DNA from: a bacterium BMS3Abin11
GTDB taxonomy: Bacteria; Pseudomonadota; Gammaproteobacteria; BMS3Bbin11
DNA length: 64,000 nucleotides
Assembly (NCBI GenBank): GCA_002897635.1
Contig: BDTD01000011.1
Span: forward strand, 76,436-140,435
Direction of reading: 5' to 3'
Of the stretch, positions 6,701 to 45,065 are shown piece by piece; the first letter of the stretch is position 1, and the number at the start of each line of letters is the position of its first letter. Position numbers and translations under genes: made by a program. The notes below the pieces were generated by a model. The model did not search any database, was not told where the DNA came from, and saw only the letters and a list, made by a program, of their open reading frames with translations.

Positions 6701-6733
6701 GCCACATAACTCACAATAAAGTGCAAATCTGAT

Positions 6734-7489
6734 ATGTCAAATGTCAGTCCTGAACCCGTTACTCGTACCCACATGAATAAAATTGTAGTTACTGGATTTG
6801 TACTCATTGTCCTTTCGGTTGTGGCCGCCATGATAGCGCCATTAGGGAGCCGGATAGGTTATTGGGATTATACTGCTGCAGTAATGATTCTTGAATGGGC
6901 AGCCTATACAGGTACTGCATCTGCTTTGATTTGCCTGATTGGCACTTTTGTTGTGCGACCCAGAAATAGCCGCCTGGGATTTTTCTTAACCCTGCTCGGC
7001 TTAGCGATCATTATTCCGACACTTCTGTATTTGATGTACTGGAAGGATGCAGAAGAGAATGCACCACCCATACAGGACATCACCACGAATACAGAAAACC
7101 CACCCGAGTTCTGGGCTGCGCCAAATGCGCGTGTCTATGGGGGAGCCGCAGTAGCCACCTACCAGAAGGAAGCATACCCATATATTCAGCCATTACTGTT
7201 ACCAGTGCCTCCAGACAAAGCATTTGATTATGCAATAGAAGTGGTTCGGCAAAAAGGCTGGGATTTATTGGATGCAAATCGTAAGGATATGCATATTGAA
7301 GCAACTGAATCCACATTCTGGTTTGGTTTTAGTGATGATGTAGCCATAAACATCACTGCAACAGATTCAGGTGGCAGTCGGGTTGATATGCGTTCGACAT
7401 CACGCTTTGGTAGTGGTGGAGATGGCGGGACCAACGCCAGGCGGATTCGATCATTTTTTGCTACTTTAAAACCCAAAGCTGATAAATAA
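6734..7489 (+). CDS. DUF1499 domain-containing membrane protein
   Basis: Three predicted TM helices, then a C-terminal region with FWFGFSDDV...RSTSRFGSGGDGGTNARRI typical of DUF1499. Confidence 0.65.
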   Translation: MSNVSPEPVTRTHMNKIVVTGFVLIVLSVVAAMIAPLGSRIGYWDYTAAVMILEWAAYTGTASALICLIGTFVVRPRNSRLGFFLTLLGLAIIIPTLLYLMYWKDAEENAPPIQDITTNTENPPEFWAAPNARVYGGAAVATYQKEAYPYIQPLLLPVPPDKAFDYAIEVVRQKGWDLLDANRKDMHIEATESTFWFGFSDDVAINITATDSGGSRVDMRSTSRFGSGGDGGTNARRIRSFFATLKPKADK

Positions 7490-7788: not shown

Positions 7789-8088
7789 ATGGGTAATGAA
7801 ATTCTTTTATAAAAGGATTCGCTGCCATCAGGGACAGGCCTTATATTTTACATTCAAGTGATTCTACTGCTCGATGGACCGCCGCAAACTCACATCAAAG
7901 TGCAAATCAGATATGTCATATTTAAGACCCTGTTACTTTGTAGGTATATTTTTTTTACTTTTTTAATGAAGATATTTGATTCGTTGAGGTATGGGTATGA
8001 TGGGAGTTCATTAAAATATTTAATGTTGATAAATAGGATTGAACATCCCACTTGAAATTTCAACTTTTTCTTATGAATCTGCAATCAC

Positions 8089-16582: not shown

Positions 16583-17192
16583 ATGTGGAGAAAACTGGAG
16601 CCAGATCTCAATCGTTTCTAATATTTGAGAGAATTGAGATCTGCCCCGGACTTTTCAAATAGAAAAACATTGATCAAATAGCAGCTTTTGTCTTACTGGG
16701 TTATTTTACATTGTACTGATCATGCAAATTTGCAGGTTCAATATACACACCATCCCGGGCTAATGTTACTGCCATTTCAGGTATCTTTTTACTGGTAAAT
16801 CGTGTTGCCATAAATCAAAGGGTCAGACTCGATTGATTCAGAATCGTGTCTGTTATTATCAGATATACTGATCAATGGCGCGTACTCCATTGTTTTTTTA
16901 AATGCAAATTTATTGCGATGTCTTTTTCTTTATTACCTTCTTGTATACCAAAACTGGTAAACCATAGAATACCAGAGCAAAAATAAAAGAAGACAGAACA
17001 CCATATTCCATTAACAACCAACCAAATATGATTATTCCACTCAATAACCAGGTCAACATTATTACTGCTTTTGGGAGATCTTCAGTCATTATCCTTACCT
17101 TTTACTTACAAAAATAATTTCATAGCCATCAGAGTTTTGTCCGACGCATAAAGTGTAAACCAGACATGTCAAATATTGCCCCTTTTTGCTTG

Positions 17193-33384: not shown

Positions 33385-33680
33385 TTTGTGCTGGCGCACG
33401 GCTAATTTGTGTCCTTTCTGGCTAGTTCTTTCTTTTTTATTCATTTTCCTGAATTGACACGAGCTTTTCGTCCTTCATGGACGAGTTCATTTCTTTTCTA
33501 CGGACAAAAGAAACCGAACCAAAGAAAAGCCGCCCCGTTGTGTTGGCCTGCGGCTGCTCTGCGCGCTTCAGTCTGAACCGGGCGCGGTGAACTCGGGCTT
33601 CGCCCTCAGACATGCACCGCACTTATCCGGCTCAGCCTTCCAGTGCTCGACAACCCAAAAGGGGACTAAAATCAGGGGAA
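33385..33680 (+). repeat. ~290 bp structured non-coding repeat, copy 1
   Basis: About 90% identical to 38590..38885 (same strand) and to the reverse complement of 44760..45065. Frame is not conserved between copies. Base-pair-preserving substitutions occur in predicted stems. Confidence 0.75.
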
Positions 33681-34004: not shown

Positions 34005-34277
34005 ATGGCTACATCGGTTAAACTTGATGATGAGTTGAAAAATCGTATTCAGCGCCTTGCTGATACGCAACATCGCTCGGCTCACTGGGTCATGCGCGAA
34101 GCTATCCGTGATTACGTTGAGCGTGAAGAAGCAAGAGAAAGCTTTAAACAGGAGGCTTTGGCATCCTGGACTGCATATCAGGAAACTGGGCTACACCTAA
34201 CCAGCCAGCAAACACGCGATTGGCTTATTACGTGGGGGACAGATAAAGAAACGGAAATTCCCGAGTGCCACGAGTAA
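34005..34277 (+). CDS. type II antitoxin, ribbon-helix-helix (CopG/ParD-like)
   Basis: N-terminal RHH (VKLDDELKNRIQRLAD). Overlaps the downstream toxin gene by 13 nt. Confidence 0.75.
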   Translation: MATSVKLDDELKNRIQRLADTQHRSAHWVMREAIRDYVEREEARESFKQEALASWTAYQETGLHLTSQQTRDWLITWGTDKETEIPECHE

Positions 34278-34558
34278 TTTTCACTCTAGGGGCAGCGAAA
34301 GGATTAGAGCGCTGTAGATTATTTCTGGTAGAAAAAAATCCCCGGGCGAGCAAACGAGCCGGTCAAGTAATAGAGCGTGTATTCACATTATTGGAAACGA
34401 GTCCAGATATTGGCAGGCCGCTCAATAATCTGCCGGAACTACGCGAACTAACCATCACATTTGGAGATACTGGTTATGTGGCGCTCTATCGCCACGAACA
34501 AGTATCCGACACGGTGTATATCCTTGCTTTCCGCCACCAGAAAGAAGCGGGCTATTAA
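34265..34558 (+). CDS. type II toxin, ParE/RelE superfamily
   Basis: 97 aa with a ParE-like pattern (...GYVALYRHEQVSDTVYILAFRHQKEAGY). Confidence 0.75.
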   Translation: MPRVIFTLGAAKGLERCRLFLVEKNPRASKRAGQVIERVFTLLETSPDIGRPLNNLPELRELTITFGDTGYVALYRHEQVSDTVYILAFRHQKEAGY

Positions 34559-34760: not shown

Positions 34761-35071
34761 CCTTGACCCGTTATCCTTCCCCCACTTATACCCGCCGCAT
34801 CTACGTCCGCAGCTTCCGTGCAAGTATCGGGCTTTGAAGATAATGGCCTTCTTACCCACTGCGACCGCCTAATATGCGATTTCTGTTCGTCAGGTCAGTG
34901 TTTTGCCTTCGGCTTTCTTCAGATTCCACCTCACGATAGACACCCTTGCCGTTTGGCTAATCGTTCCCCTTGCCGGGTCGATAGTGGACTTTCATCACCA
35001 AGTCATCCGACCGCCACCACACGTATCGGAACAGCACCGTAAGGCGCTACGCGCCATACTTGGCGCACCAA

Positions 35072-35098
35072 TAAAAAACCCGCCGAAGCGGGTTTAGC
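35072..35098 (-). terminator. rho-independent terminator of the PEP-CTERM gene
   Basis: On the minus strand, AAACCCGCTTCGGCGGGTTT hairpin followed by TTTTTTATT. Confidence 0.7.
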
Positions 35099-35103
35099 AG
35101 GAG

Positions 35104-35820
35104 CTATGCAGATTTCCTTCTTCGGGCAAATCCCAGACCAGCAAGGCCGATACCAAAGAGTGCGAGGGTGGCGGGTTCTGGAACAGCTGGAACAGGAGCA
35201 GTTAGCAGGTAATTCACTTGATTCTGATAAAGCTGAACTTCGTCCGCGTAGCTAAGTGTGTTACCCAAAAATCCGTTGATGATCGTCGACCCACCGTTAC
35301 CAATAACTATGCCAGCATTTCCATCTTCAAAACTTGCCGCAACTACACTTCCAGTGTCTGGAAAAAAGCTACGAGAGTAAATGCCATATGTTGGATTAGT
35401 AAGGCTTAATATAGATGAACTTAAACCAGACGAAAACAATGATGTCAAAGTCAAAGTTCCCTGATTGGTATTTGCCTGAATAACATCAAATGCAGCATCA
35501 GCTTCCGTGAGCCAGTGGCCAAATATTGCGGCATCACCACCAGCAACATAACTACTCAAAGCGGCAGATCCTGTTGAGTGGCCGCTAGCATCGAATTGGG
35601 TAACAACGAGGTCCCAAGAGGTAGCTAGCTGGGTTACAAAGTCAGTGTCATTATTCACCCTTGTTACACTGAGTCCCAAACCACTTAAAGCGTCACCCCA
35701 TGTGTCAATACCTGAATACTCATAGTCATCATATAGAAGTATGGCTGCGTTAGCCGTATTCAAACCCGCTAGTAGAACTACCAGGCCCAGCAGAAACTTT
35801 AATCTTATTCTCTTAAACAT
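35104..35820 (-). CDS. PEP-CTERM sorting-domain secreted protein (intact)
   Basis: N-terminal signal peptide and a C-terminal VPEPATLALFGIGLAGLGFARRRKSA motif (PEP, TM helix, basic tail). Confidence 0.75.
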   Translation of the reverse strand: MFKRIRLKFLLGLVVLLAGLNTANAAILLYDDYEYSGIDTWGDALSGLGLSVTRVNNDTDFVTQLATSWDLVVTQFDASGHSTGSAALSSYVAGGDAAIFGHWLTEADAAFDVIQANTNQGTLTLTSLFSSGLSSSILSLTNPTYGIYSRSFFPDTGSVVAASFEDGNAGIVIGNGGSTIINGFLGNTLSYADEVQLYQNQVNYLLTAPVPAVPEPATLALFGIGLAGLGFARRRKSA

Positions 35821-35885
35821 TCTTCTTTACTCCCTAAATTATCAGAACAGAATTTGTGTATATTATGTGTATGTGTAATATTGAA

Positions 35886-35901
35886 AGCAATATCCATGCC
35901 A
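35886..35901 (-). promoter_or_regulatory. sigma-54 (-24/-12) promoter TGGCAT-N5-TTGCT
   Basis: Minus-strand read is TGGCATGGATATTGCT, with canonical GG/GC spacing, about 65 bp upstream of the PEP-CTERM start. Confidence 0.6.
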
Positions 35902-36250
35902 CCATCTAATTTCAATGACTTATAACTACTTAATTTAAGAAGTGTAAAATATTCTGACAATTTTGTTGCGTGTATTACGGTAATCACTTTGCTAAGTAGG
36001 ACGACTGCTAGATGAGTTCAGCGATTCCTGAATGTCTCTTGTGGGTCGAAGGACTAAACCGCTCTCGCGGTAACCCTCCATCAAGTTAATCGCCATTCGA
36101 TAACATAAGGGCACCTCTATTTAGTGCACTTTATGTTCATTTATCCGGAATGATTCTCATTCCTTGTTTAAATCTATTTCACAGGGATATTTTGTCGAGA
36201 TAACCCCGGTTTTTTGCTCAATTCTTATCGTTTTCCACTTGTTTCTGTTT

Positions 36251-37441
36251 TCAAGACACACTCATCCTCTCAAGATAACAGAATCGTCTCATGTTATAGA
36301 CCAGATTCATCATGCCAATCTCTGTTCTTGCACGAACTCGGCCAATCGAACGGATAGCCTTTTTTCGCAAGTTGCTTTGTGCACCAAAAACATGTTCTAC
36401 ACGGCACCGTGTTTTTGAACGGGTATGGTTTCCCTGCTTCTCCCAGTTCGTCAGCTTCTTATTCTTGCAGCCTTTTCGTTGAACCTTGCTACGATAACCT
36501 GCCTTCTTAAGACTCGCCTCTTGCTCCGTTGAACGATAAGCACTGTCTGCCCAAACATCTTTGTTGCTATTGCCTTCATCTAACAGTTCATCAAAAACAT
36601 TCGAGTCATGAACATTCGAGTCATGAACATTGGCCTCGGTAACGTCATAGTCGCGTATCAGCTTATGACCATTATCAATCGATATATGGTTCTTGTAACC
36701 ATAGCTGTGTTTACCGTTCTTTTGCGTCCAGCGGGCATCCGTGTCCTTTTGCCTGCGCTTGTGACTATCCCAGTCCTCTGGAACATCATTTTCTTTGATC
36801 TGTTTGTTTTCTTCCCGGGTGTTTCGCTGAATGGGCACCTGGATTAATGAGGCATCAATGATCTGTCCTTTACGAGCAAGGTATCCTGCCTGGTTCAGTT
36901 GTGCAGTAAAAGCCTTAAACAAATCATCAAGAAGTGTTAATTCGGACAACCGATTTCTAAAAGCCCAGAAGGTCTTCGCATCGGGCGAACGCTGATGATT
37001 GTTCAACCCCAGGAATCTTTGAAAACTACGCCGGTCTTCAACCTGAAATTCAAGTTGGTCATCACTAAGACCGTACAAACTTTGTATCACGAGACCTTTA
37101 AATATCATCACCACATCTTTACGCGGGGCACCCAATTTACTCTTACGTTTCGTTTGCTGTGCTTTATCAAGTAAAGGTCTAAAAGCTTCCCAGTCAATGG
37201 CTTTGTCAAGTTCAAGTAAGGGATTGCCTAACTTGTCCAGGCGGATGTCCTGGGCGTCAAATAAGGAGCCAAATATGTCTCGGGTCATTCGAAATCCTCT
37301 GCAAGTTGGTTGAAGTTTGTAGCTTGGTATTTTAGCATTTATGTGACTAAATAGAGATGCCCATAAAGGTTTCAACTTACCCGTGTCAGCCGGGTCTAAA
37401 TCTATGCTGAGTATTGAGGCATGTTGCCTCAGCTCATTCAT
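36251..37441 (-). CDS. IS5 family transposase (DDE)
   Basis: DDE_Tnp_1 pattern with ...GYKNHISIDNGHKLIRDYDVTEANVHDS...ADSAYRS. Contains an in-frame 15 bp tandem duplication (NVHDSNVHDS). Confidence 0.85.
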   Translation of the reverse strand: MNELRQHASILSIDLDPADTGKLKPLWASLFSHINAKIPSYKLQPTCRGFRMTRDIFGSLFDAQDIRLDKLGNPLLELDKAIDWEAFRPLLDKAQQTKRKSKLGAPRKDVVMIFKGLVIQSLYGLSDDQLEFQVEDRRSFQRFLGLNNHQRSPDAKTFWAFRNRLSELTLLDDLFKAFTAQLNQAGYLARKGQIIDASLIQVPIQRNTREENKQIKENDVPEDWDSHKRRQKDTDARWTQKNGKHSYGYKNHISIDNGHKLIRDYDVTEANVHDSNVHDSNVFDELLDEGNSNKDVWADSAYRSTEQEASLKKAGYRSKVQRKGCKNKKLTNWEKQGNHTRSKTRCRVEHVFGAQSNLRKKAIRSIGRVRARTEIGMMNLVYNMRRFCYLERMSVS

Positions 37442-37672
37442 AGGAGAAGACTCATGACACAGATAAAAGAACCCATCAGCCCGTTACGTCAACGCATGAT
37501 TGAAGACATGTCGTTACGCAAGCTGGCACCCAAGACCCAATCCGGTTATATCCGGGTGGTTAAGAACTTCACCCATTACATCGGCCGTCCGCCGGATACC
37601 GCAAGCGCAGAAGACCTACGTCATTATCAGCTACATTTGAGTATCCCGGGTCGGACCATCACAGGCCGTTGA
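37421..37672 (+). pseudogene. N-terminal fragment of a tyrosine recombinase/integrase (SAM-like N-domain)
   Basis: RMIEDMSLRKLAPKTQSGYIRVVKNFTHYIGRPPDTASAEDLRHYQLHL is typical of an integrase N-terminal domain. Only 83 aa, with no catalytic domain. Confidence 0.5.
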
Positions 37673-37696
37673 TATTTAATACTATTTCGACATTAA

Positions 37697-38467
37697 TCAG
37701 TCAACATTTTGGCTTAGAAGGTTCTTTTTGGTACCAAAATGGGCGGTGTAAGCACATGTCCGCTCCTTGATCTGGTACAGGTCCGCACTCTGGTGGACAG
37801 ATCGCCCTTTAGTCTTGATGCTCATTTGTTCTATTACGTTCTTGACAAAAGTCTGGCTACCCACTGCCACACTCTTACTCCAGATCTTCTGGCGCTGGCC
37901 ATCGTTCTTGCTCAGTGTTTCGTTAATCCATTTTTGATGGTGGACTTGCAGGCGTAATTCATCTTTCAGCCCCAGCAGCAATGCCAGGGCAACCCTGTCG
38001 ATGATGCGGTAGCGCTTTGGCGGCGACTGGATCTCGTGGTAACCACTGTGTTTCCACTCGCCGGGATGTGTGACTACACCCGCGCGCACCATATTCATGT
38101 CAACATAGATAAGACACCTTGCCAGGTATTCATCTGTATCCATGGCAGTAGCAAAATAACGATCTTCCCAGTAGGCCCCCTTTCGCTGTTTGCGCTGGTT
38201 GTATTCCTGTGCGGTACGCCCCGCAATGAGCTGCATGCTTCTGGAAATAACATTATCGCCCGTATCCATTATTACGAGCAGATGGATATGGTTCGACGTG
38301 ACAATATAGTTCAACACACAAAACCCATAGCGCTTCTTCGCCTGGAATAACCAGTAGCACCATCGTTCACGGTCACGGCTAAACTTCAGAAGAAATTCCC
38401 ATTTATGACAACGGCGTGTGATATGCCAGACGTGGCATGGTAGTGAGTGGCGATTGGCTCTTGGCAT
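37697..38467 (-). CDS. IS200-like Y1 (HuH) transposase, REP-associated tyrosine transposase-like
   Basis: HuH motif SNHIHLLV, downstream catalytic Tyr region. Family PF01797-like. Length is 256 aa. Confidence 0.75.
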   Translation of the reverse strand: MPRANRHSLPCHVWHITRRCHKWEFLLKFSRDRERWCYWLFQAKKRYGFCVLNYIVTSNHIHLLVIMDTGDNVISRSMQLIAGRTAQEYNQRKQRKGAYWEDRYFATAMDTDEYLARCLIYVDMNMVRAGVVTHPGEWKHSGYHEIQSPPKRYRIIDRVALALLLGLKDELRLQVHHQKWINETLSKNDGQRQKIWSKSVAVGSQTFVKNVIEQMSIKTKGRSVHQSADLYQIKERTCAYTAHFGTKKNLLSQNVD

Positions 38468-38589
38468 AACACTTCATCCTTAAAGTTGTTATTTTGTAAG
38501 GGGAATGGGCCTTTTAAGGCATGAAACGGGCCAATTCTAGCTCCATTATTCTATCTTATCAATGAGCTGGCTTGGTCTGACCCCAATGG

Positions 38590-38885
38590 TCTTTATTTTA
38601 GTAGTGTGCTGGCGCACGGCTGGAGGTTGTCCTTTTGGGTGTGTTTTCTTTTTTTATTTGATTTCTTGAATTGTTATGCGCTTTTCGTCCTTCATGGACG
38701 AGTTCATTTCTTTTCTACGGACAAAAGAAACGAACCAAAGAAAAGCCGCCCCATTGTGTTGGCCTGCGGCTGCTCTGCGCGCTTCAGCCTGAACCGGGCG
38801 CGGTGAACTCGGGCTTCGCCCTCAGACATGCACCGCGCTTAACCGGCCCAGACTTCCAGTACTCGACAACCCAAAAGGGGATGAA
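38590..38885 (+). repeat. ~290 bp structured non-coding repeat, copy 2
   Basis: See copy 1. Lies immediately upstream of the Y1 transposase gene. Confidence 0.75.
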
Positions 38886-39313
38886 CATCAAAATCGGTGC
38901 TAAGGCCCTTACCAATGGTAATTTGAACAGCTGCTTCCGGCCAAGATAAGTTGTCAGGTGTGTACTAACTCCGTCCAGACTGACGCTGCTAAACCGGCAA
39001 CCCGGTGTTTACTCGATCCCTGCCGGGAAACCCCAAATCAAATCCCCATAGCACGATGTTCTACACCAGCCGCATGGCTTCCCCCCGCGGTTTCCTCCCT
39101 CGAGGTTTGTCAGACGCCTGCCCGTTGAGTGCGTGATGCGCTGACAGGCCGGTGGTTGGGGGCAGGCATCTTACAACCCTTAACAACTGCGGACGTTTGA
39201 TAACGCCTTGCACACCGGCAGCATAAAGCAGAGCGACGAGGAACGGCGCTTTTTGCCGTCCGAGTGGATTTGTCTTGTTATGTGTATTTATCAAGTGCAT
39301 TGGTGTTTTGTTA

Positions 39314-39691
39314 TTACTGACAAATTGCTGGACAATTTTTACCCCCGCCATATCCAGAATAGCAAGGGCCACCATAGCCGTCATAACATGACCCACCATA
39401 GCCACTGTACGCACCACCACCATATCCCTTATTAGCACCACCACCATACCCTTCATATTTAGGTCCTCCATATCCTTTATATTCAGGACCACCGTAGCCC
39501 TTATATTTGGGGCCTCCGTATCCTTTATACCTAGGGCCACCGTATCCTTTATATGCACCACCACCGTAACCTTTATACTCGGATCCACCGTATCCATCGT
39601 AACAAGGGCCGCCGTAGCCTGCATAACCTTTGCATTCTGCAAGCGCAGAATTGAAGTAAAAAATAGACAAAACGAGTATTAGCGTTTTCAT
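39314..39691 (-). CDS. secreted Gly/Tyr-rich protein with about 11 tandem octapeptide repeats (KGYGGPxY)
   Basis: Signal peptide MKTLILVLSIFYFNSALA, then GYGG(P/G)xYK repeats flanked by Cys-containing ends. Strong GGAGG RBS. The overlapping ORF 39061..39642 is an alternative frame of the same repeats. Confidence 0.6.
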   Translation of the reverse strand: MKTLILVLSIFYFNSALAECKGYAGYGGPCYDGYGGSEYKGYGGGAYKGYGGPRYKGYGGPKYKGYGGPEYKGYGGPKYEGYGGGANKGYGGGAYSGYGGSCYDGYGGPCYSGYGGGKNCPAICQ

Positions 39692-39734
39692 TTTAACTTA
39701 CCTCCAAGGCGCTCAATAATGGGCATAGTAGAAG

Positions 39735-40369
39735 TTATGCAGACTTATTTCTTCGAGCAAATACCAAACCAACAAGGCCAAGACCAAATAGTGCAAGGGT
39801 AACGGGTTCTGGAACAACTGTTACGTATGTACGAAATGAAGCATCTGCTCCGTAATTTCTAAAAAATTGCCATTGGCCAAAATTGACCCACAGCTCCCCA
39901 CCCAAATACTGATCACTATTATCATTTTGATAAATATAAGCACTATTACCAAAATTCCCTGTTACGCTTGTATTTATAAATATATAAAAAGTTGTTCTCC
40001 AAAAGAAACTGATATATCTGATAAATCAAAACCAATCCAAGTAAGCGGTTGCTGATTAATTAATGAACCTGTTTCATAAAATAAATAATTTGATTCAAAA
40101 TTATCTAGAGGGGCCCCATTCTCAGAACTTCTAGTTAATCCAATTCCATAAGACCTCGTTTCGCTTCCGTGCCCACTCAATTCAACTTCTAGTCTTGATA
40201 AATACCCATCAATGCCAACTGTAAATGATTGTGCTCCAGGAATCACAAGACCGACAGTAGTATTACCCTCAACTTCTTGATCAAGAATTGGCATGCTGAA
40301 TGAACTCAATGGAAAAAGAAGTATAGCCAAAATTGAACCTATTGATCTATAATTTTTAGTAAATTTCAA
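39735..40369 (-). pseudogene. PEP-CTERM protein gene with an internal frameshift
   Basis: The N-terminal 131 aa ORF (signal peptide) ends at 39974. The PEP-CTERM motif VVPEPVTLALFGLGLVGLVFARRNKSA* is encoded in another frame, which stays open across the junction. Confidence 0.55.
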
Positions 40370-40429
40370 TTTTTTCTCCCCTCTAAAAAGTTTGTTTTAA
40401 ACAACACAATAAATACTGTTTGAATAGTC

Positions 40430-40445
40430 AGCATAAATCATGCCA
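40430..40445 (-). promoter_or_regulatory. sigma-54 (-24/-12) promoter TGGCAT-N5-ATGCT
   Basis: Minus-strand TGGCATGATTTATGCT, about 60 bp upstream of the frameshifted PEP-CTERM gene. Confidence 0.55.
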
Positions 40446-40643
40446 CCAAATAACTTCAATGATTTATGGACACTCATTCTATGAAGTGTAAAGTATACTG
40501 ACAGTTCAGCGGTCCTTGAAGGTCTCAGTAGGGTCGATAGCGGCTGTCTGCGACTGAAGCCTGTGAAAAGCAGTTTCGTGCTGTATGAATTGGCGCTTAC
40601 CGGCCATATGTGGGCATTTAATATCAAGTTATGACAGGAACTC

Positions 40644-41438
40644 CTAACAATTTAATAACTTCAACAAGAAGGTCTTGGCTTTACAAATGAGTGATACGTT
40701 TGAATCAACATACTCTATTTCGACGCCTAATTCTTCAATCACCTGTATTATCAACGATGAATTGATACCCTTTCCTGTTGGTAAGAAATAACTAGTTTCT
40801 TCAATATAACTTTCACCATCCTCAATTTTCACAACCTGCGCTGGCATCAAATGCGTTTCCTGATTAGCAACCATAATTCCTGCAATATAAAAATTCTTGT
40901 TTTGAGTGTGTGCAATTACTGGCGCACCACTAGCACCCTGTAATGCAGGAAATGATGTGTTAAAGCACTGTGTTTTGACTTTTTCCGGATACTCGCTTTC
41001 GATATACCGCATTATGTTACCTTTGTGGGCGAATGGCTCAATTTTAATATGCTTGCCTCCTCCACGCTTTCTTTCAATTGATATTTGACTATATTCATAA
41101 CAGTAAACATCTGCATTAAGAGCAGGCTGCTGCTTAGCAAACTGTAATGGAATAGCACCTTCAATAGGTGCAATTTTGCAAATTGCAATATCATAGTCTT
41201 TGGATGCTACTATTTCCGAGATAGCCCAAATTTCAACACGCTTACCGGAGTTAAAAAGAAATGCATATTTAGCGAATTCATCCCGCTCACCAAGTTCAAA
41301 TATATGTTTGGCTGTGAGAATGTGTAGATTATTACTGGTTCCAATAAAGCAACCTGTTCCTAAAATCTCTTGTATAGGGTCATGTTCCGAGGCAATAACA
41401 ATCGGAACTATTGCTTTTTCTGGCTGAAAAGTATCCAT
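40644..41438 (-). CDS. trypsin-like (S1/chymotrypsin fold) serine peptidase, no signal peptide
   Basis: Catalytic triad context: LTAKH (His), DIAICKI (Asp), GASGAPV (GxSGxP Ser). Confidence 0.75.
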   Translation of the reverse strand: MDTFQPEKAIVPIVIASEHDPIQEILGTGCFIGTSNNLHILTAKHIFELGERDEFAKYAFLFNSGKRVEIWAISEIVASKDYDIAICKIAPIEGAIPLQFAKQQPALNADVYCYEYSQISIERKRGGGKHIKIEPFAHKGNIMRYIESEYPEKVKTQCFNTSFPALQGASGAPVIAHTQNKNFYIAGIMVANQETHLMPAQVVKIEDGESYIEETSYFLPTGKGINSSLIIQVIEELGVEIEYVDSNVSLICKAKTFLLKLLNC

Positions 41439-41454
41439 ATTATCTATTTATCGT

Positions 41455-41580
41455 GAATGATGATTTCGCTGCGTATTCTGCTGAACGTGAACACCTATTC
41501 TGGTGATCGTGAACACCTGGTTATTCCACGTATTGGCTTAGGTTCATTTTACCCTCAAGTGTTCACGATCAGTCAACAAT
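41455..41580. promoter_or_regulatory. promoter/operator region of the peptidase gene with three CGTGAACAC / GTGTTCACG sites
   Basis: On the minus strand, TTGACT...TAAAAT with an inverted GTGTTCACGATC half-site in the spacer, and two direct GTGAACACCT repeats between promoter and start. Confidence 0.45.
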
Positions 41581-42034
41581 TGACTGTAATTTCCGCATAG
41601 ATTCTCCTTTTAGTTTGATTCGATGCAAAACCAACGGGGTCACCCATTAGCCCGCCCCGGTCAATAGGCAAAGTTTAACTCTGCCGATAACAGCATAAAT
41701 CTTCATCTTCATCCATCAACGTTACGCACATCGCATCCGTTATGTCATCGTCTTTGGCATCAGATCGAAACGATCCGCACCAGTCACCCATCTGGATCAA
41801 GGCGAAACCCAAAACTTTTCAGTTCAGCCCCTGGTACCTCGGTACCCCACACAATCTTCGGTACCAAACCGTGTCCAAAAATTAATCACAGAATCGATGG
41901 TTCAGCCTTGGCTGTCCAGACCCAGTACAGCTCACGGTTTGGGCGAAACGTAAATATTGATGGTCGGCTGAGACGTCCAATCAGACTCTATGGTTGTACC
42001 AGACCCCGTTCTGGTTCATCTCAGCCGCCCAAAC

Positions 42035-43045
42035 TTAACCCGGAAACATCCGTCTGGCATCATAGGGTACCTGATGTTTAAGCATCATCCAGGTGGCTCT
42101 TGCCAATTTTCGGGCGACGGCCCGAATGGCAATAATGCCATTTGTCTTGGCCTTTTTTCGTTCATAGAAACGCTGTGCCAATGGCTCAAATCGTACTGCA
42201 AAATGTGCCGCTTCGGAGAAGGCCCAGGAAAGATATTTATTACCCGCTTTGGCATTGCCTTCACCTTTCTTTTTCCCATTACTGGTGCGTGTACTGTCCA
42301 CACAACGGCAATACGATGCAAAGTTGCCCGCACCCGCAAAGCGATGGATATCGCCGGTTTCCAGCATGATGGTCAGGCCGAGTATTTTTCCAATACCGGT
42401 GATTGTTTGTAGTATTTTAAAGACGTCTGTCAACTTCACCGCCTGATGTGCAGACGCCTCCAGAACATCAATTTCTCTCTGGGCGGCCTGATAAACGGCC
42501 AACCCCGCGCATACGGCCTGAAGTGTGTAACCATCCACGTGTGGCGGGACAAACTCAGGTTTGCGTAGTTTCTCCGAGCTAATTCGAATTCCCGTTGATC
42601 GCCATATCTGGCTTTGCACACTAATCAGTTGCGTACTGGCTGTTCTGACCAACGACAGCCTTCGTCGTAGCATGTCTCTAATCGCTCTTTGTTCTTTGGG
42701 GTAGATGTAGCCTGTGGGCAAGATACCCAGTCGCATGAGGTGCGCAAGGTGAAAGGCGTCTTGATGATCACCGCTGTATTTCAGGCCATCGTATTGCTTG
42801 ACTGCTGCCGTATTAACCAGCTGTAGATTGTAGCCCTGTTCTTGTAATCCATCGACTAACCAGTACCAATTGAAAGTCGATTCCACTGCGATCCCGCGCA
42901 AGGTCCTACGGTAAGGACGTAGTGTTTCGAGTGTCAGTGATAAATCATTGTTTAACCGCTTTTCAAACACTCGCTTGTCCTCTTCGTCGATGATAACCAC
43001 AACATGATTATTTGAATGTAAATCAATTCCGCAGTAATGTGACAT
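42035..43045 (-). CDS. IS110 family transposase (DEDD)
   Basis: N-terminal CGIDLH..., central and C-terminal IS110-family motifs (ITGIG...LETGDIHRF...GNKYLSWAF). Confidence 0.85.
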   Translation of the reverse strand: MSHYCGIDLHSNNHVVVIIDEEDKRVFEKRLNNDLSLTLETLRPYRRTLRGIAVESTFNWYWLVDGLQEQGYNLQLVNTAAVKQYDGLKYSGDHQDAFHLAHLMRLGILPTGYIYPKEQRAIRDMLRRRLSLVRTASTQLISVQSQIWRSTGIRISSEKLRKPEFVPPHVDGYTLQAVCAGLAVYQAAQREIDVLEASAHQAVKLTDVFKILQTITGIGKILGLTIMLETGDIHRFAGAGNFASYCRCVDSTRTSNGKKKGEGNAKAGNKYLSWAFSEAAHFAVRFEPLAQRFYERKKAKTNGIIAIRAVARKLARATWMMLKHQVPYDARRMFPG

Positions 43046-43342
43046 GTCAGTCTCCTCTTCGTTTGTGAGCAGCCAGTTTAACAACTGGCTGCGAGGAGGC
43101 TGGCTAGAGGATTATCAGACTCGATTGATCATGAGGAATTAGAATCAATTCGTAATGCCACCAATAATTCCTGGGTGTCTGGTAATGATTATTTCAAAAA
43201 AGAAATTGAACGTTTACTTAATCGTAGAACGGGGCAACTTCCCACTGGTGGTGACAGACGAAGTGAAAAATTTAAGAATCGTCATTGATTCGTTTTCTAT
43301 CGAGTCTGACCCCGTTGGTTTGGACCCCGTTGGTTTGGAGTG

Positions 43343-43873
43343 TTATATTACTTCCCAAGCCTTCAACTCAACCTCAATAGCATTGATGTACTTTAAACAA
43401 TCGTTTTTCTCGACAAGAATTGCACCATGAGCTAGGTCATTTCGAGCCTCTCGACCCTTATCAAGTGTATTGTAATCCTGCCATGTGAGAGTAATTTTTG
43501 AAACTTTCATCATGTAACCCAACTTATCACTTTTCTTGGCAATAACTTCTTCATTTTGTAGTTGGGATAACACCTGACCCAGAACAGAATAGGCGAGAAT
43601 AAGTAGGAGATTATATGACTCTTCAGGACGATCCTCATACATAATCATGCCACCTGCTAAATATAGTTTTGAACTTATCCTACTCTCAAGTTCACGAACC
43701 ACTGCCCAATCTTGGCCAATAGTTCTCTTTATTTTCTTATCTCTTATCACGAATCGTAGTAGGCGTTTAATAACGGGCTTAGGAGGAGCTATGAGGACTT
43801 CTTTCTTCGGGCAAATCCCAGAGACCAGCAAGGCCAATGCCGAATAGTGCAAGGGTCGCGGGTTCGGGGACAA
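43343..43873 (-). CDS. hypothetical protein, possible HEPN-like (Rx4H) domain. Start uncertain.
   Basis: C-terminal region has an R-N-D-L-A-H (Rx4H) motif. The track ORF overlaps the upstream PEP-CTERM gene by 95 nt, so the true start is probably internal. Confidence 0.35.
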   Translation of the reverse strand: MSPNPRPLHYSALALLVSGICPKKEVLIAPPKPVIKRLLRFVIRDKKIKRTIGQDWAVVRELESRISSKLYLAGGMIMYEDRPEESYNLLLILAYSVLGQVLSQLQNEEVIAKKSDKLGYMMKVSKITLTWQDYNTLDKGREARNDLAHGAILVEKNDCLKYINAIEVELKAWEVI

Positions 43874-44474
43874 CCTCTATACTATCAATTGTGCCACTGA
43901 GTTGAAGACTGTTCCTAAAAGAACCAAACAACAATCTGTATGAATACAGGGAAGCATCAAAAGGAACAAAATCTGGAAGGCCTATCCCGTCTAGCTCATC
44001 AGAACCCAATACCGCAGCAAAAGCCGTGGTCACCCAAATATCATCTAAGCTGCCCGTGCTTGGTGAAAAACCACCAAACTTCACAACACTATAGGCCTCT
44101 TCGCGATAGAAGGGAGATGTCGGTAGTACATCACGAACTTGAATATACCCCAGACTTAGACTCGACCATGAAAAATTCCCCACCGATAAATCAAACTCAT
44201 TTACCACATAATAGCGACCATAAGCCAAATTGTCAGGAAGCACATCCACTGGATTCGTTGTGTCATAAGTATATCTGCCAAATATTCTGTCTCATAAGCT
44301 GAAGCTAGATTCTAGGCCAGACTCTATAAATGATGCTGCGCCCCTGAACTCTACTGCTATCAGATTGGCCATGCTAGGAGTAGACAGTATCAGGGCAAAT
44401 AAGCCCGCGATATTCTGAGGCCGAAGATGCCCTATAGCTAATTTTTTAATTATAATTGTATTCCAATATTTCAT
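43779..44474 (-). pseudogene. PEP-CTERM protein gene with at least two frameshifts
   Basis: Signal-peptide exon (44292..44474) is out of frame with the body (43779..44249). The C-terminal VVPEPATLALFGIGLAGL is followed by a CT insertion that replaces GFARRKKSS* with WDLPEERSPHSSS*. Confidence 0.55.
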
Positions 44475-44580
44475 TATGGAGCCTCTGATTATGGAGCCTC
44501 TGATTAATAATTCTTTGTATCTTAGACCGTGTCTTTACTATTGAGTGAGCCTGAACAGTGGCCTTCCGACTAATACAAAA

Positions 44581-44595
44581 GCAACATCCATGCCA
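44581..44595 (-). promoter_or_regulatory. sigma-54 (-24/-12) promoter TGGCAT-N5-TTGC
   Basis: Minus-strand TGGCATGGATGTTGC, about 105 bp upstream of the signal-peptide fragment. Confidence 0.55.
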
Positions 44596-44759
44596 CTATG
44601 CAATTACAATGACTTACGACACATAATGCTAAGTAGTAATACTTTGTCCGTAAAATATTCTGACACTTTTATTGAATATACTACGAAGCCGATCAATTTG
44701 CGCTGTTAGATGAGTTCAGCGATTCCTAGAAGTCTCTTGTGGGTCGACAGCAGTCAATT

Positions 44760-45065
44760 CAGGACACCGGTTTTGACTTCCTTTCCCCTTTTGTGTCGTC
44801 GAGCACTGGAAGGCTGGGCCGGATAAGCGCGGTGCCTGTCTGAGGGCGAAGCCCGAGTTCACCGTGCCCGGTCCAGACTGAAGCGCGCAGAGCAGCCGTA
44901 GGCCAACACATCGGGGCGGCTTTTCTTTGGTTCCGTTTCTTTTGTCCGTAGAAAAGAAATGAACTCGTCCATGAAGGACGAAAAACGAGCATTAATTCAA
45001 GTTGAGAACAAAAAAGTACTCAGAAAGCTAAGAGAAAACCCAGGCCGTGCGCCAGCACAAAAGAA
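44760..45065 (-). repeat. ~290 bp structured non-coding repeat, copy 3 (inverted)
   Basis: Its reverse complement aligns with copies 1 and 2. It abuts the pmbA stop. Confidence 0.75.

What the first reader, a model, noticed from the sequence alone, without database searches (positions are those of the whole stretch)
35104..44595. Family of three sigma-54-promoted PEP-CTERM genes sharing a conserved upstream element, two of them decayed
Each PEP-CTERM gene (35104..35820, 39735..40369, 43779..44474) is preceded on its own strand by a canonical -24/-12 sequence: TGGCATGGATATTGCT, TGGCATGATTTATGCT and TGGCATGGATGTTGC. Two of them also share a further-upstream block, GATGAGTTCAGCGATTCCT..AGTCTCTTGTGGGTCGA (35999..36050 and 44708..44755). 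This block is a candidate enhancer-binding (UAS) site for a PrsR-like sigma-54 activator. Only the first gene is intact. The second needs a frameshift to reach its PEP-CTERM tail. The third has a displaced signal-peptide exon and a CT dinucleotide insertion that destroys the basic C-terminal tail. No exosortase gene is present in the window.
Basis: partly seen in the sequence, partly recalled or inferred. Interest (0 to 1): 0.65.

Follow-up and report, generated by a model that had tools for sequence, protein, structure and literature searches.

The report
Known sigma-54 PEP-CTERM promoters, extra element

Summary
This is the cis-regulatory region Haft et al. (2006) described for proteobacterial PEP-CTERM genes. 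It has a 17-nt enhancer "motif 1" ending in TTTACA, a spacer, then a sigma-54 motif. A conserved IHF-like box lies between it and the promoter.

Scans of large public genome and metagenome collections, plus a g1 ortholog, added only three more loci. Each lies upstream of a PEP-CTERM gene. The block is as conserved (71-94%) as motif 1, while the DNA around it has drifted to 45-76%. Five other related promoters, including a Thauera one, keep motif 1 and the sigma-54 motif but lack the block. It is probably an auxiliary protein-binding site of unknown partner, not the PrsR box.

The gene damage is real. It is identical in seven assemblies covering at least four sequencing runs from two projects. 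g2 lost one T. g3 has an in-frame GGA-to-TGA stop, not a displaced exon, plus a 2-nt insertion. The three proteins share only the 29-residue tail. Mostly known biology; modest interest.

The parts
35104..35820 (-). g1: intact PEP-CTERM gene, 238 aa. Signal peptide by inspection, glutamine-amidotransferase-like fold with no cysteine, tail VPEPATLALFGIGLAGLGFARRRKSA.
35076..35095 (-). Intrinsic terminator hairpin after g1. It is the only one of the three genes with a terminator.
   Evidence: same hairpin after L013 and L026 genes
35886..35901 (-). g1 sigma-54 -24/-12 motif TGGCATGGATATTGCT, 65 nt before the ATG.
35907..35922 (-). g1 conserved spacer box TAAGTCATTGAAATTA. It is an IHF-like site on the opposite strand (TTTCAATGACTTA, 1 mismatch to WATCAANNNNTTR).
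35943..35959 (-). g1 motif 1 (published PEP-CTERM enhancer, predicted PrsR site) TGTCAGAATATTTTACA, 41 nt upstream of the sigma-54 motif.
36016..36049 (-). g1 distal block TCGACCCACAAGAGACATTCAGGAATCGCTGAAC, 56 nt upstream of motif 1.
39735..40369 (-). g2: PEP-CTERM pseudogene. One T is lost from an ancestral TTTT run (now TTT at 39978-39980), which shifts the frame before the tail.
40430..40445 (-). g2 sigma-54 motif TGGCATGATTTATGCT.
40451..40466 (-). g2 IHF-like box TAAATCATTGAAGTTA (2 mismatches to consensus).
40487..40503 (-). g2 motif 1 TGTCAGTATACTTTACA.
40504..40537 (-). g2 distal block TCGACCCTACTGAGACCTTCAAGGACCGCTGAAC. It abuts motif 1 directly because the linker is deleted.
39314..39691 (-). 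Secreted YGG-repeat protein, 125 aa, 44 nt downstream of g2 with no terminator between. It is possibly still driven by the g2 promoter (inferred).
43779..44474 (-). g3: PEP-CTERM pseudogene with two lesions. One is an in-frame TGA at 44292-44294 where homologs have Gly. The other is a 2-nt insertion within TCTC at 43821-43824 that destroys the basic tail.
44580..44595 (-). g3 sigma-54 motif TGGCATGGATGTTGCT, 105 nt before the ATG.
44601..44616 (-). g3 IHF-like box TAAGTCATTGTAATTG (2 mismatches to consensus).
44649..44665 (-). g3 motif 1 TGTCAGAATATTTTACG.
44714..44747 (-). g3 distal block TCGACCCACAAGAGACTTCTAGGAATCGCTGAAC, 48 nt upstream of motif 1.
43343..43750 (-). Conserved 135-aa gene immediately after g3 with no terminator between. 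The same gene follows unrelated PEP-CTERM genes in two other organisms.

Best explanation
These are three transcription units built on the cis-regulatory layout already described for proteobacterial PEP-CTERM genes.

Layout, from upstream to downstream:
- an enhancer box (motif 1, TGTCAG-N-ATA-Y-TTTAC-R, a TGT-N11-ACA dyad);
- about 20 nt, then an IHF-like bending site;
- a sigma-54 -24/-12 promoter;
- a 60-105-nt leader;
- a gene for a secreted protein ending in a PEP-CTERM sorting tail.

Inferred mechanism: a PrsR-type NtrC-family activator, encoded elsewhere in the genome, binds motif 1. IHF bends the short spacer, and the activator opens the sigma-54 closed complex. The product would then be processed by an exosortase.

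It is found only in this marine lineage. It most likely binds an additional protein, either a second regulator or an extra activator contact. This is inferred from conservation alone.

g1 is functional. g2 and g3 are true pseudogenes. Their promoters may persist because each is followed, without a terminator, by another gene.
For: Match to the published layout:
- Haft et al. 2006 describe a 17-nt motif ending in TTTACA. It lies 32-92 nt (mean 63) upstream of a sigma-54 motif, which in turn lies 23-221 nt (mean 71) from the start codon.
- The values here are 41, 41 and 53 nt for the spacer, and 65, 60 and 105 nt to the start codon.
- Motif 1, the sigma-54 motif and the IHF-like box recur upstream of PEP-CTERM genes in eight other loci from other organisms.
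- A Thauera homolog of g1 has motif 1 and the sigma-54 motif but no IHF match.
- The IHF consensus is perfect in five of those loci (L013, L014, L016, L017, L026).
- RpoN dependence of a PEP-CTERM gene has been shown experimentally (PMC9850573).

The block:
- Six independent loci carry it: three in the window, MAG246, L013 and L026.
- Four unrelated passenger domains are involved, and every locus is upstream of a PEP-CTERM gene.
- Apart from these, the genome, metagenome and viral scans gave only one chance hit.
- Pairwise identity is 71-94% for the block. It is 52-76% for the linker, 45-59% for the upstream flank and 34-57% for the leader.
- Between g1 and its ortholog L026 the block is 91% identical, the CDS 83% and the linker 58%.

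The pseudogenes.
Against:
- No expression data were available.
- The published motif logos could not be viewed. The match to motif 1 therefore rests on the text description and on conservation.
- The spacing from block to motif 1 (0, 48, 56, 56, 62, 62 nt) is not helically phased. The block is also dispensable in related promoters, so its function could be minor or absent.
- The window's own IHF-like boxes deviate from the consensus by 1-2 bases.
Confidence: 0.7

Rival explanations
1. The distal block is itself the PrsR (sigma-54 activator) binding site.
For: - It is conserved, lies upstream of the promoter, and is found only before PEP-CTERM genes.
- It contains an imperfect dyad TTCAG-N6-CTGAA: 5 of 5 bp in three copies and 3-4 of 5 in the others (read from the sequences).
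Against: - The published universal enhancer (motif 1) is a different sequence and is present in all three promoters.
- Five further related promoters, including Thauera, keep motif 1 and the sigma-54 motif but have no block, even in a sensitive profile search.
- The block bears no resemblance to motif 1.
Confidence: 0.12
2. The block has no function. It is a leftover of recent common ancestry or gene conversion among copies of a duplicated promoter module.
For: - It occurs in only a few closely related marine populations.
- It behaves as an insertion/deletion module. L017 keeps both of its flanks but not the block, and g2 keeps the block but not the linker.
- Its spacing to motif 1 is variable.
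Against: - Neighbouring sequence on both sides has drifted to near-random similarity while the block stays at 71-94%.
- A 27-nt core is identical between g1 and an ortholog whose CDS is only 83% identical.
- The paralogs g1 and g3 within one genome are no more alike in the linker (58%) than pairs from different genomes. This argues against recent wholesale conversion.
Confidence: 0.2
3. g2 and g3 are intact genes, and the apparent lesions are sequencing or assembly errors.
For: The g2 lesion is a length change in a short homopolymer run (TTTT to TTT), a class of change that can be an artefact.
Against: - 1001 nt spanning g2 and 1101 nt spanning g3 are 100% identical, without gaps, in several assemblies.
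- These derive from DRR093003, DRR093004, DRR093005, ERZ1742237, ERZ1742238 and the separate run SRR7787493.
- g3 has two independent lesions.
Confidence: 0.03
4. The genes are driven by sigma-70 promoters. Hexamers overlapping motif 1 (TTGTCA-17-TAAATT in g1, CTGTCA-17-TAGAAT in g2) would be the real promoters.
For: The consensus scan lists these two sites.
Against: - Sigma-70-like matches are not enriched over shuffles (23 found, 19.7 expected).
- g3 has no such site listed.
- The -24/-12 elements are conserved across eleven loci.
- Sigma-54 dependence is published for this gene class.
Confidence: 0.05

Closest known systems
Proteobacterial PEP-CTERM cis-regulatory region (motif 1 + sigma-54 motif 2), predicted target of PrsK/PrsR (Haft, Paulsen, Ward, Selengut 2006, BMC Biol 4:29)
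   Same: - Single-gene or short operons encoding PEP-CTERM proteins, with long non-coding leaders.
- A 17-nt motif ending in TTTACA.
- Spacer and promoter-to-start distances within the published ranges.
- A GG-N10-GC sigma-54 motif.
   Different: - There is an additional 34-nt conserved block 0-62 nt upstream of motif 1. The paper does not mention it, and it is absent from Thauera and other relatives.
- A conserved IHF-like box lies in the spacer. The section of the paper read here does not mention one.
- The spacer (41-53 nt) is at the short end of the published range.
RpoN-dependent pepA of Aquincola tertiaricarbonis / Zoogloea floc-formation system (PMC9850573)
   Same: A PEP-CTERM gene transcribed from a mapped -24/-12 promoter, with the predicted enhancer upstream.
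   Different: - g1 scores only 37.6 bits against the PepA model, whose cutoff is 80, so it is not PepA.
- There is no experimental data for this organism.
Classical NtrC/NifA-type sigma-54 promoters with UAS-IHF-promoter geometry (textbook knowledge)
   Same: - The order is enhancer dyad (TGT-N11-ACA, close to the NifA TGT-N10-ACA), then an IHF site, then -24/-12.
   Different: - The enhancer centre is only about 75 nt from the start site.
- The extra distal element is not a repeat of the enhancer dyad.

Membership tests
PEP-CTERM cis-regulatory region (Haft et al. 2006) | Lies upstream of a gene whose product carries the PEP-CTERM domain (TIGR02595 / PF07589) | tested here: met
   TIGR02595 scores are 29.7, 29.3 and 20.3 bits against a cutoff of 16.
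PEP-CTERM cis-regulatory region (Haft et al. 2006) | Motif 2: sigma-54 -24 GG / -12 GC consensus | tested here: met
   TGGCAYG-N4-TTGCW matches with 0, 1 and 0 mismatches. These are the only three matches in the window.
PEP-CTERM cis-regulatory region (Haft et al. 2006) | Motif 1: 17-nt element whose 3' end is TTTACA | tested here: met
   g1 and g2 end in TTTACA; g3 ends in TTTACG. The match is to the paper's text only, because the logo was not viewable.
PEP-CTERM cis-regulatory region (Haft et al. 2006) | Spacer between motif 1 and motif 2 of 32-92 nt; motif 2 to start codon of 23-221 nt | tested here: met
   Spacers are 41, 41 and 53 nt. Leaders are 65, 60 and 105 nt.
PEP-CTERM cis-regulatory region (Haft et al. 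2006) | Genome encodes PrsK, PrsR, PrsT, an EpsH/exosortase and RpoN | not testable with these tools
   None is in the 64-kb window. The rest of the BMS3Abin11 genome could not be scanned.
PEP-CTERM cis-regulatory region (Haft et al. 2006) | Transcription depends on sigma-54 and the activator | not testable with these tools
   This needs expression experiments.
PEP-CTERM sorting-signal proteins | C-terminal PEP motif, hydrophobic helix, then a basic cluster at the very end, read in frame from a signal-peptide-bearing N-terminus | tested here: met
   Met for g1 only. g2 reaches its tail only after a 1-nt correction. g3 has a premature TGA, and its basic cluster is replaced by WDLPEERSPHSSS.
Flocculation-associated PepA (NF033554) | Full-length score at or above the curated cutoff of 80 bits | tested here: not met
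   g1 scores 37.6 bits and the g2 tail 40 bits.
Class I glutamine amidotransferase fold (g1 passenger domain) | GATase1-like fold with a catalytic Cys-His-Glu triad | tested here: not met
   The fold is similar (TM 0.54-0.57, E=1e-7; model pLDDT 87.6). The g1 sequence contains no cysteine. It shares the fold only and is not an amidotransferase.
IHF binding site | Match to WATCAANNNNTTR between enhancer and promoter | tested here: inconclusive
   The window copies have 1, 2 and 2 mismatches. The homologous box is a perfect match in L013, L014, L016, L017 and L026. Binding was not tested.

The most novel reading that the evidence does not exclude
The promoter module (block, motif 1, IHF box, -24/-12) and the 3' module together form a reusable expression-and-sorting chassis. 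The 3' module is about 85 nt of PEP-CTERM tail plus about 18 nt after the stop codon.

Unrelated passenger domains would be swapped into this chassis by recombination. The distal block would be the binding site of a second, lineage-specific regulator layered on top of PrsR.

Hints in the data:
- Six passenger-unrelated genes share both flanks at the DNA level.
- The same 135-aa downstream gene follows three unrelated PEP-CTERM passengers in three organisms.
Probability: 0.2. Interest if true: 0.55.

Novelty: new member of a known kind. Interest (0 to 1): 0.3.

Why it matters
The main result is a caution.

Two things are modestly new. First, there is a well-delimited 34-nt element. It is conserved as strongly as the enhancer and the promoter, yet found only in one marine lineage. 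That makes it a concrete target for finding an additional regulator of exosortase substrates. Second, the data give a clear picture of how these genes are built: conserved regulatory and sorting ends around interchangeable middles.

The verified pseudogenes, together with the many insertion sequences nearby, suggest this organism is losing part of its PEP-CTERM repertoire.

Tried and rejected
- RNA reading of the block: rejected. The consensus fold is only -4 kcal/mol with no compensatory pairs, and Rfam has no hit on it.
- Mobile-element or phage origin of the block: no match in viral contigs. A profile search of the window and all 30 fetched loci found no degenerate copies.
- My first sigma-54 pattern had the wrong spacing and found nothing relevant. 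I corrected it.
- Homologs of g2 and g3 from other organisms (L007-L012) did not help with the block. They sit in multi-gene clusters without it. L008 does have a motif-1-like box.
- A second repeated motif (AAAGTGCAAATCTGATATGTCA, three copies) looked superficially like a reversed motif 1. It has no -24/-12 partner and no PEP-CTERM gene next to it. I set it aside.
- No paper mentions the source organism, and its taxonomy entry is unclassified.
- The similarity of the block's first 9-10 nt to a stretch of the neighbouring group II intron (TATCGACCC) was judged to be coincidence.


Full report
WHAT IS THERE

Three minus-strand genes end in PEP-CTERM tails: g1 at 35104-35820, g2 at 39735-40369 and g3 at 43779-44474. 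These are the only such tails in the window. They are the only matches to TGGCAYG-N4-TTGCW at one mismatch or fewer in 64 kb.

The count of three is not significant on its own. The shuffles give an expected 1.73, and 24 of 100 shuffles reach three. What makes it non-chance is placement. Each match sits 60-105 nt upstream of a PEP-CTERM start codon, on the coding strand, inside sequence that aligns between the three loci. The window comes from "bacterium BMS3Abin11", a marine metagenome bin.

THE LAYOUT IS ALREADY PUBLISHED

Haft et al. 2006 (PMC1569441) reported that most proteobacterial PEP-CTERM genes are single-gene operons with long leaders. They found that 99 of 167 such genes share a cis-regulatory region. 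It consists of a 17-nt motif 1 ending in TTTACA, a spacer of 32-92 nt (mean 63), and a sigma-54 motif 2. Motif 2 lies 23-221 nt (mean 71) from the start codon. They predicted that motif 1 binds the NtrC-type regulator PrsR. RpoN-dependent transcription of a PEP-CTERM gene, with a mapped start site, has since been shown in Aquincola (PMC9850573).

- TGTCAGAATATTTTACA at 35943-35959
- TGTCAGTATACTTTACA at 40487-40503
- TGTCAGAATATTTTACG at 44649-44665

The spacers are 41, 41 and 53 nt, and the leaders are 65, 60 and 105 nt. All are within the published ranges.

Between motif 1 and the promoter lies a conserved box, GTAAGTCATTGAAATTA. Read on the other strand it approximates the IHF consensus WATCAANNNNTTR. 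The window copies have 1-2 mismatches. The homologous box is a perfect match in five related promoters. The order is therefore enhancer, IHF site, promoter, which is the classical arrangement for sigma-54 promoters.

The pattern TCGACCC-N4-GAGAC-N10-CGCTGAAC occurs upstream of all three genes, not two: 36016-36049, 40504-40537 and 44714-44747. No shuffle produced a match. In g2 it abuts motif 1, because the linker found in g1 (56 nt) and g3 (48 nt) is missing.

A scan of 185,579 species-representative genomes found it in only one other organism, besides a chance hit in Agrococcus. That organism is Pseudomonadota MAG246, where the block lies upstream of an unrelated 72-aa PEP-CTERM gene. A scan of JGI metagenomes found one more locus, L013, upstream of an unrelated 201-aa PEP-CTERM gene. 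An ortholog of g1 with 77% protein identity, from another marine project (L026), has a 31/34 variant. Viral contigs have none. A profile search of the window and all fetched loci found no weaker copies.

That makes six independent loci and four unrelated passenger domains, always upstream of a PEP-CTERM gene and always with motif 1 and a -24/-12 motif.

Pairwise identity by segment:

| Segment | Identity |
|---|---|
| Distal block | 71-94% |
| Motif 1 | 76-94% |
| Sigma-54 motif | 56-100% |
| Linker (block to motif 1) | 52-76% |
| 60 nt upstream of the block | 45-59% |
| Leader | 34-57% |

Between g1 and L026 the block is 91% identical, the coding sequence 83% and the linker 58%. So the block is an island of constraint, not merely the edge of a recent duplication.

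Several things argue against it being the PrsR site:
- It does not resemble motif 1.
- It shows no RNA-structure covariation.
- Five other related promoters keep motif 1 and the sigma-54 motif but lack it (L014/15, L016, L017, L018 and Thauera L028-30). All but the Thauera one also keep the IHF box.
- In L017 both flanks of the block are recognisable but the block itself is not.
- Its distance to motif 1 (0, 48, 56, 56, 62, 62 nt) is not helically phased.

My reading is that it is a lineage-specific auxiliary protein-binding site. This is an inference. The partner and the effect are unknown.

THE DECAY IS REAL, BUT ONE DETAIL IS WRONG

g1 is intact. It belongs to a family with about 20 full-length homologs at 35-78% identity, including one from Thauera.

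g2 has intact homologs of 213-217 aa that align across the break. The ancestral sequence reads GEQLFIYFINTS. The window has lost one T from a TTTT run, now TTT at 39978-39980.

g3 is a single reading frame, not a displaced exon. It has an in-frame TGA at 44292-44294 where homologs have Gly, so the change was GGA to TGA. It also has a 2-nt insertion within TCTC at 43821-43824. That insertion is absent from six other tails and replaces the basic cluster with WDLPEERSPHSSS.

Sequence spanning both lesions is 100% identical, without gaps, in independent assemblies. These derive from DRR093003, DRR093004, DRR093005, ERZ1742237, ERZ1742238 and the unrelated run SRR7787493. Sequencing error is therefore excluded as far as assemblies can show.

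NOT A PROTEIN FAMILY

BLASTP finds similarity between g1, g2 and g3 only in the last 29 residues.

At the DNA level the shared 3' module starts at the V-P-E-P codons and runs about 18 nt past the stop codon. It then continues in one of two ways. In g1, L013 and L026 it runs into a terminator hairpin. In g3, L014 and L016 it runs into a conserved stretch that leads to a 135-aa gene; g2 has a similar stretch that leads to the YGG-repeat gene instead.

Only g1 has a terminator. g2 is followed after 44 nt by a secreted YGG-repeat protein, and g3 by the 135-aa gene. This may explain why the promoters of the two pseudogenes are still intact (inferred).

The g1 passenger domain is predicted with confidence (pLDDT 87.6). 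It has a class I glutamine-amidotransferase-like fold (TM about 0.55) but contains no cysteine, so it is not an amidotransferase.

WHAT COULD NOT BE TESTED

No exosortase, PrsK/PrsR/PrsT or rpoN is in the window. Sigma-54 dependence and PrsR binding are therefore inferred from the published system.

VERDICT

This is a new instance of a known regulatory architecture. It comes with two verified pseudogenes and one previously undescribed, lineage-restricted conserved upstream element of unknown function. Interest is modest.

Noticed in passing
window 34767-35068 (-): A group II intron 5' fragment. Rfam RF02001 (D1-D4) matches 34767-34940 with E=1.9e-29. The intron's GTGCG start at 35068 lies 7 nt after the stem of g1's terminator. 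To my knowledge that is the insertion preference of class C introns. No reverse-transcriptase ORF follows (a ParE/RHH toxin-antitoxin pair lies at 34005-34558), so the intron looks truncated.
   Followed up: partly
window 33450-33665 (+), 38665-38881 (+), 44784-45001 (-): A repeat of about 216 nt in three copies, 86-93% identical. Each starts with a small hairpin, TTCGTCCTTCATGGACGAG. One copy lies beside a REP-associated tyrosine transposase (37697-38467) and one just upstream of the g3 block. A similar hairpin start was seen by eye in MAG246 (L006 near 4340). There is no Rfam match.
   Followed up: partly
window 39314-39691 (-): A secreted 125-aa protein made of about nine 8-residue repeats (YKGYGGPx), encoded by 24-nt tandem repeats. 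It has no Pfam or NCBIfam match. It lies 44 nt downstream of pseudogene g2 with no terminator between, so it may be expressed from the g2 sigma-54 promoter.
   Followed up: partly
window 43343-43750 (-); L014 918-1304, L015 833-1240, L016 944-1351: A conserved 135-aa gene with no known domain lies directly after g3. The same gene lies directly after unrelated PEP-CTERM genes in two other organisms. This suggests either a conserved two-gene unit or passenger replacement in place.
   Followed up: partly
window 6708-6750, 7887-7929, 17140-17182: A third repeated intergenic motif, AAAGTG[CT]AAA-C-GA-ATGTCA. From reading the sequence, two of the three copies appear to lie just upstream of small minus-strand ORFs. 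It is not linked to a -24/-12 motif. It may be the operator of some other regulator.
   Followed up: partly
window 44477-44506: An exact 15-nt tandem duplication (TAATCAGAGGCTCCA x2) in the g3 leader, just before its start codon. It duplicates the ribosome-binding-like GAGG.
   Followed up: no
window 36108-37365, 37421-37672, 37697-38467, 42035-43084: Mobile elements are dense between the three genes. There is an IS5-family element 59 nt beyond the g1 block, a truncated integrase fragment, a REP-associated tyrosine transposase and an IS110-family element. A trypsin-like peptidase gene (40644-41438) lies between g2 and the IS110.
   Followed up: partly
P0005 and P0006 (homologs of g3): The closest intact homologs of g3 in other organisms have altered sorting motifs (VASP and VSEP instead of VPEP) and longer C-terminal extensions. 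They get no Pfam PEP-CTERM hit. This passenger family may be losing or changing its sorting signal elsewhere too.
   Followed up: no
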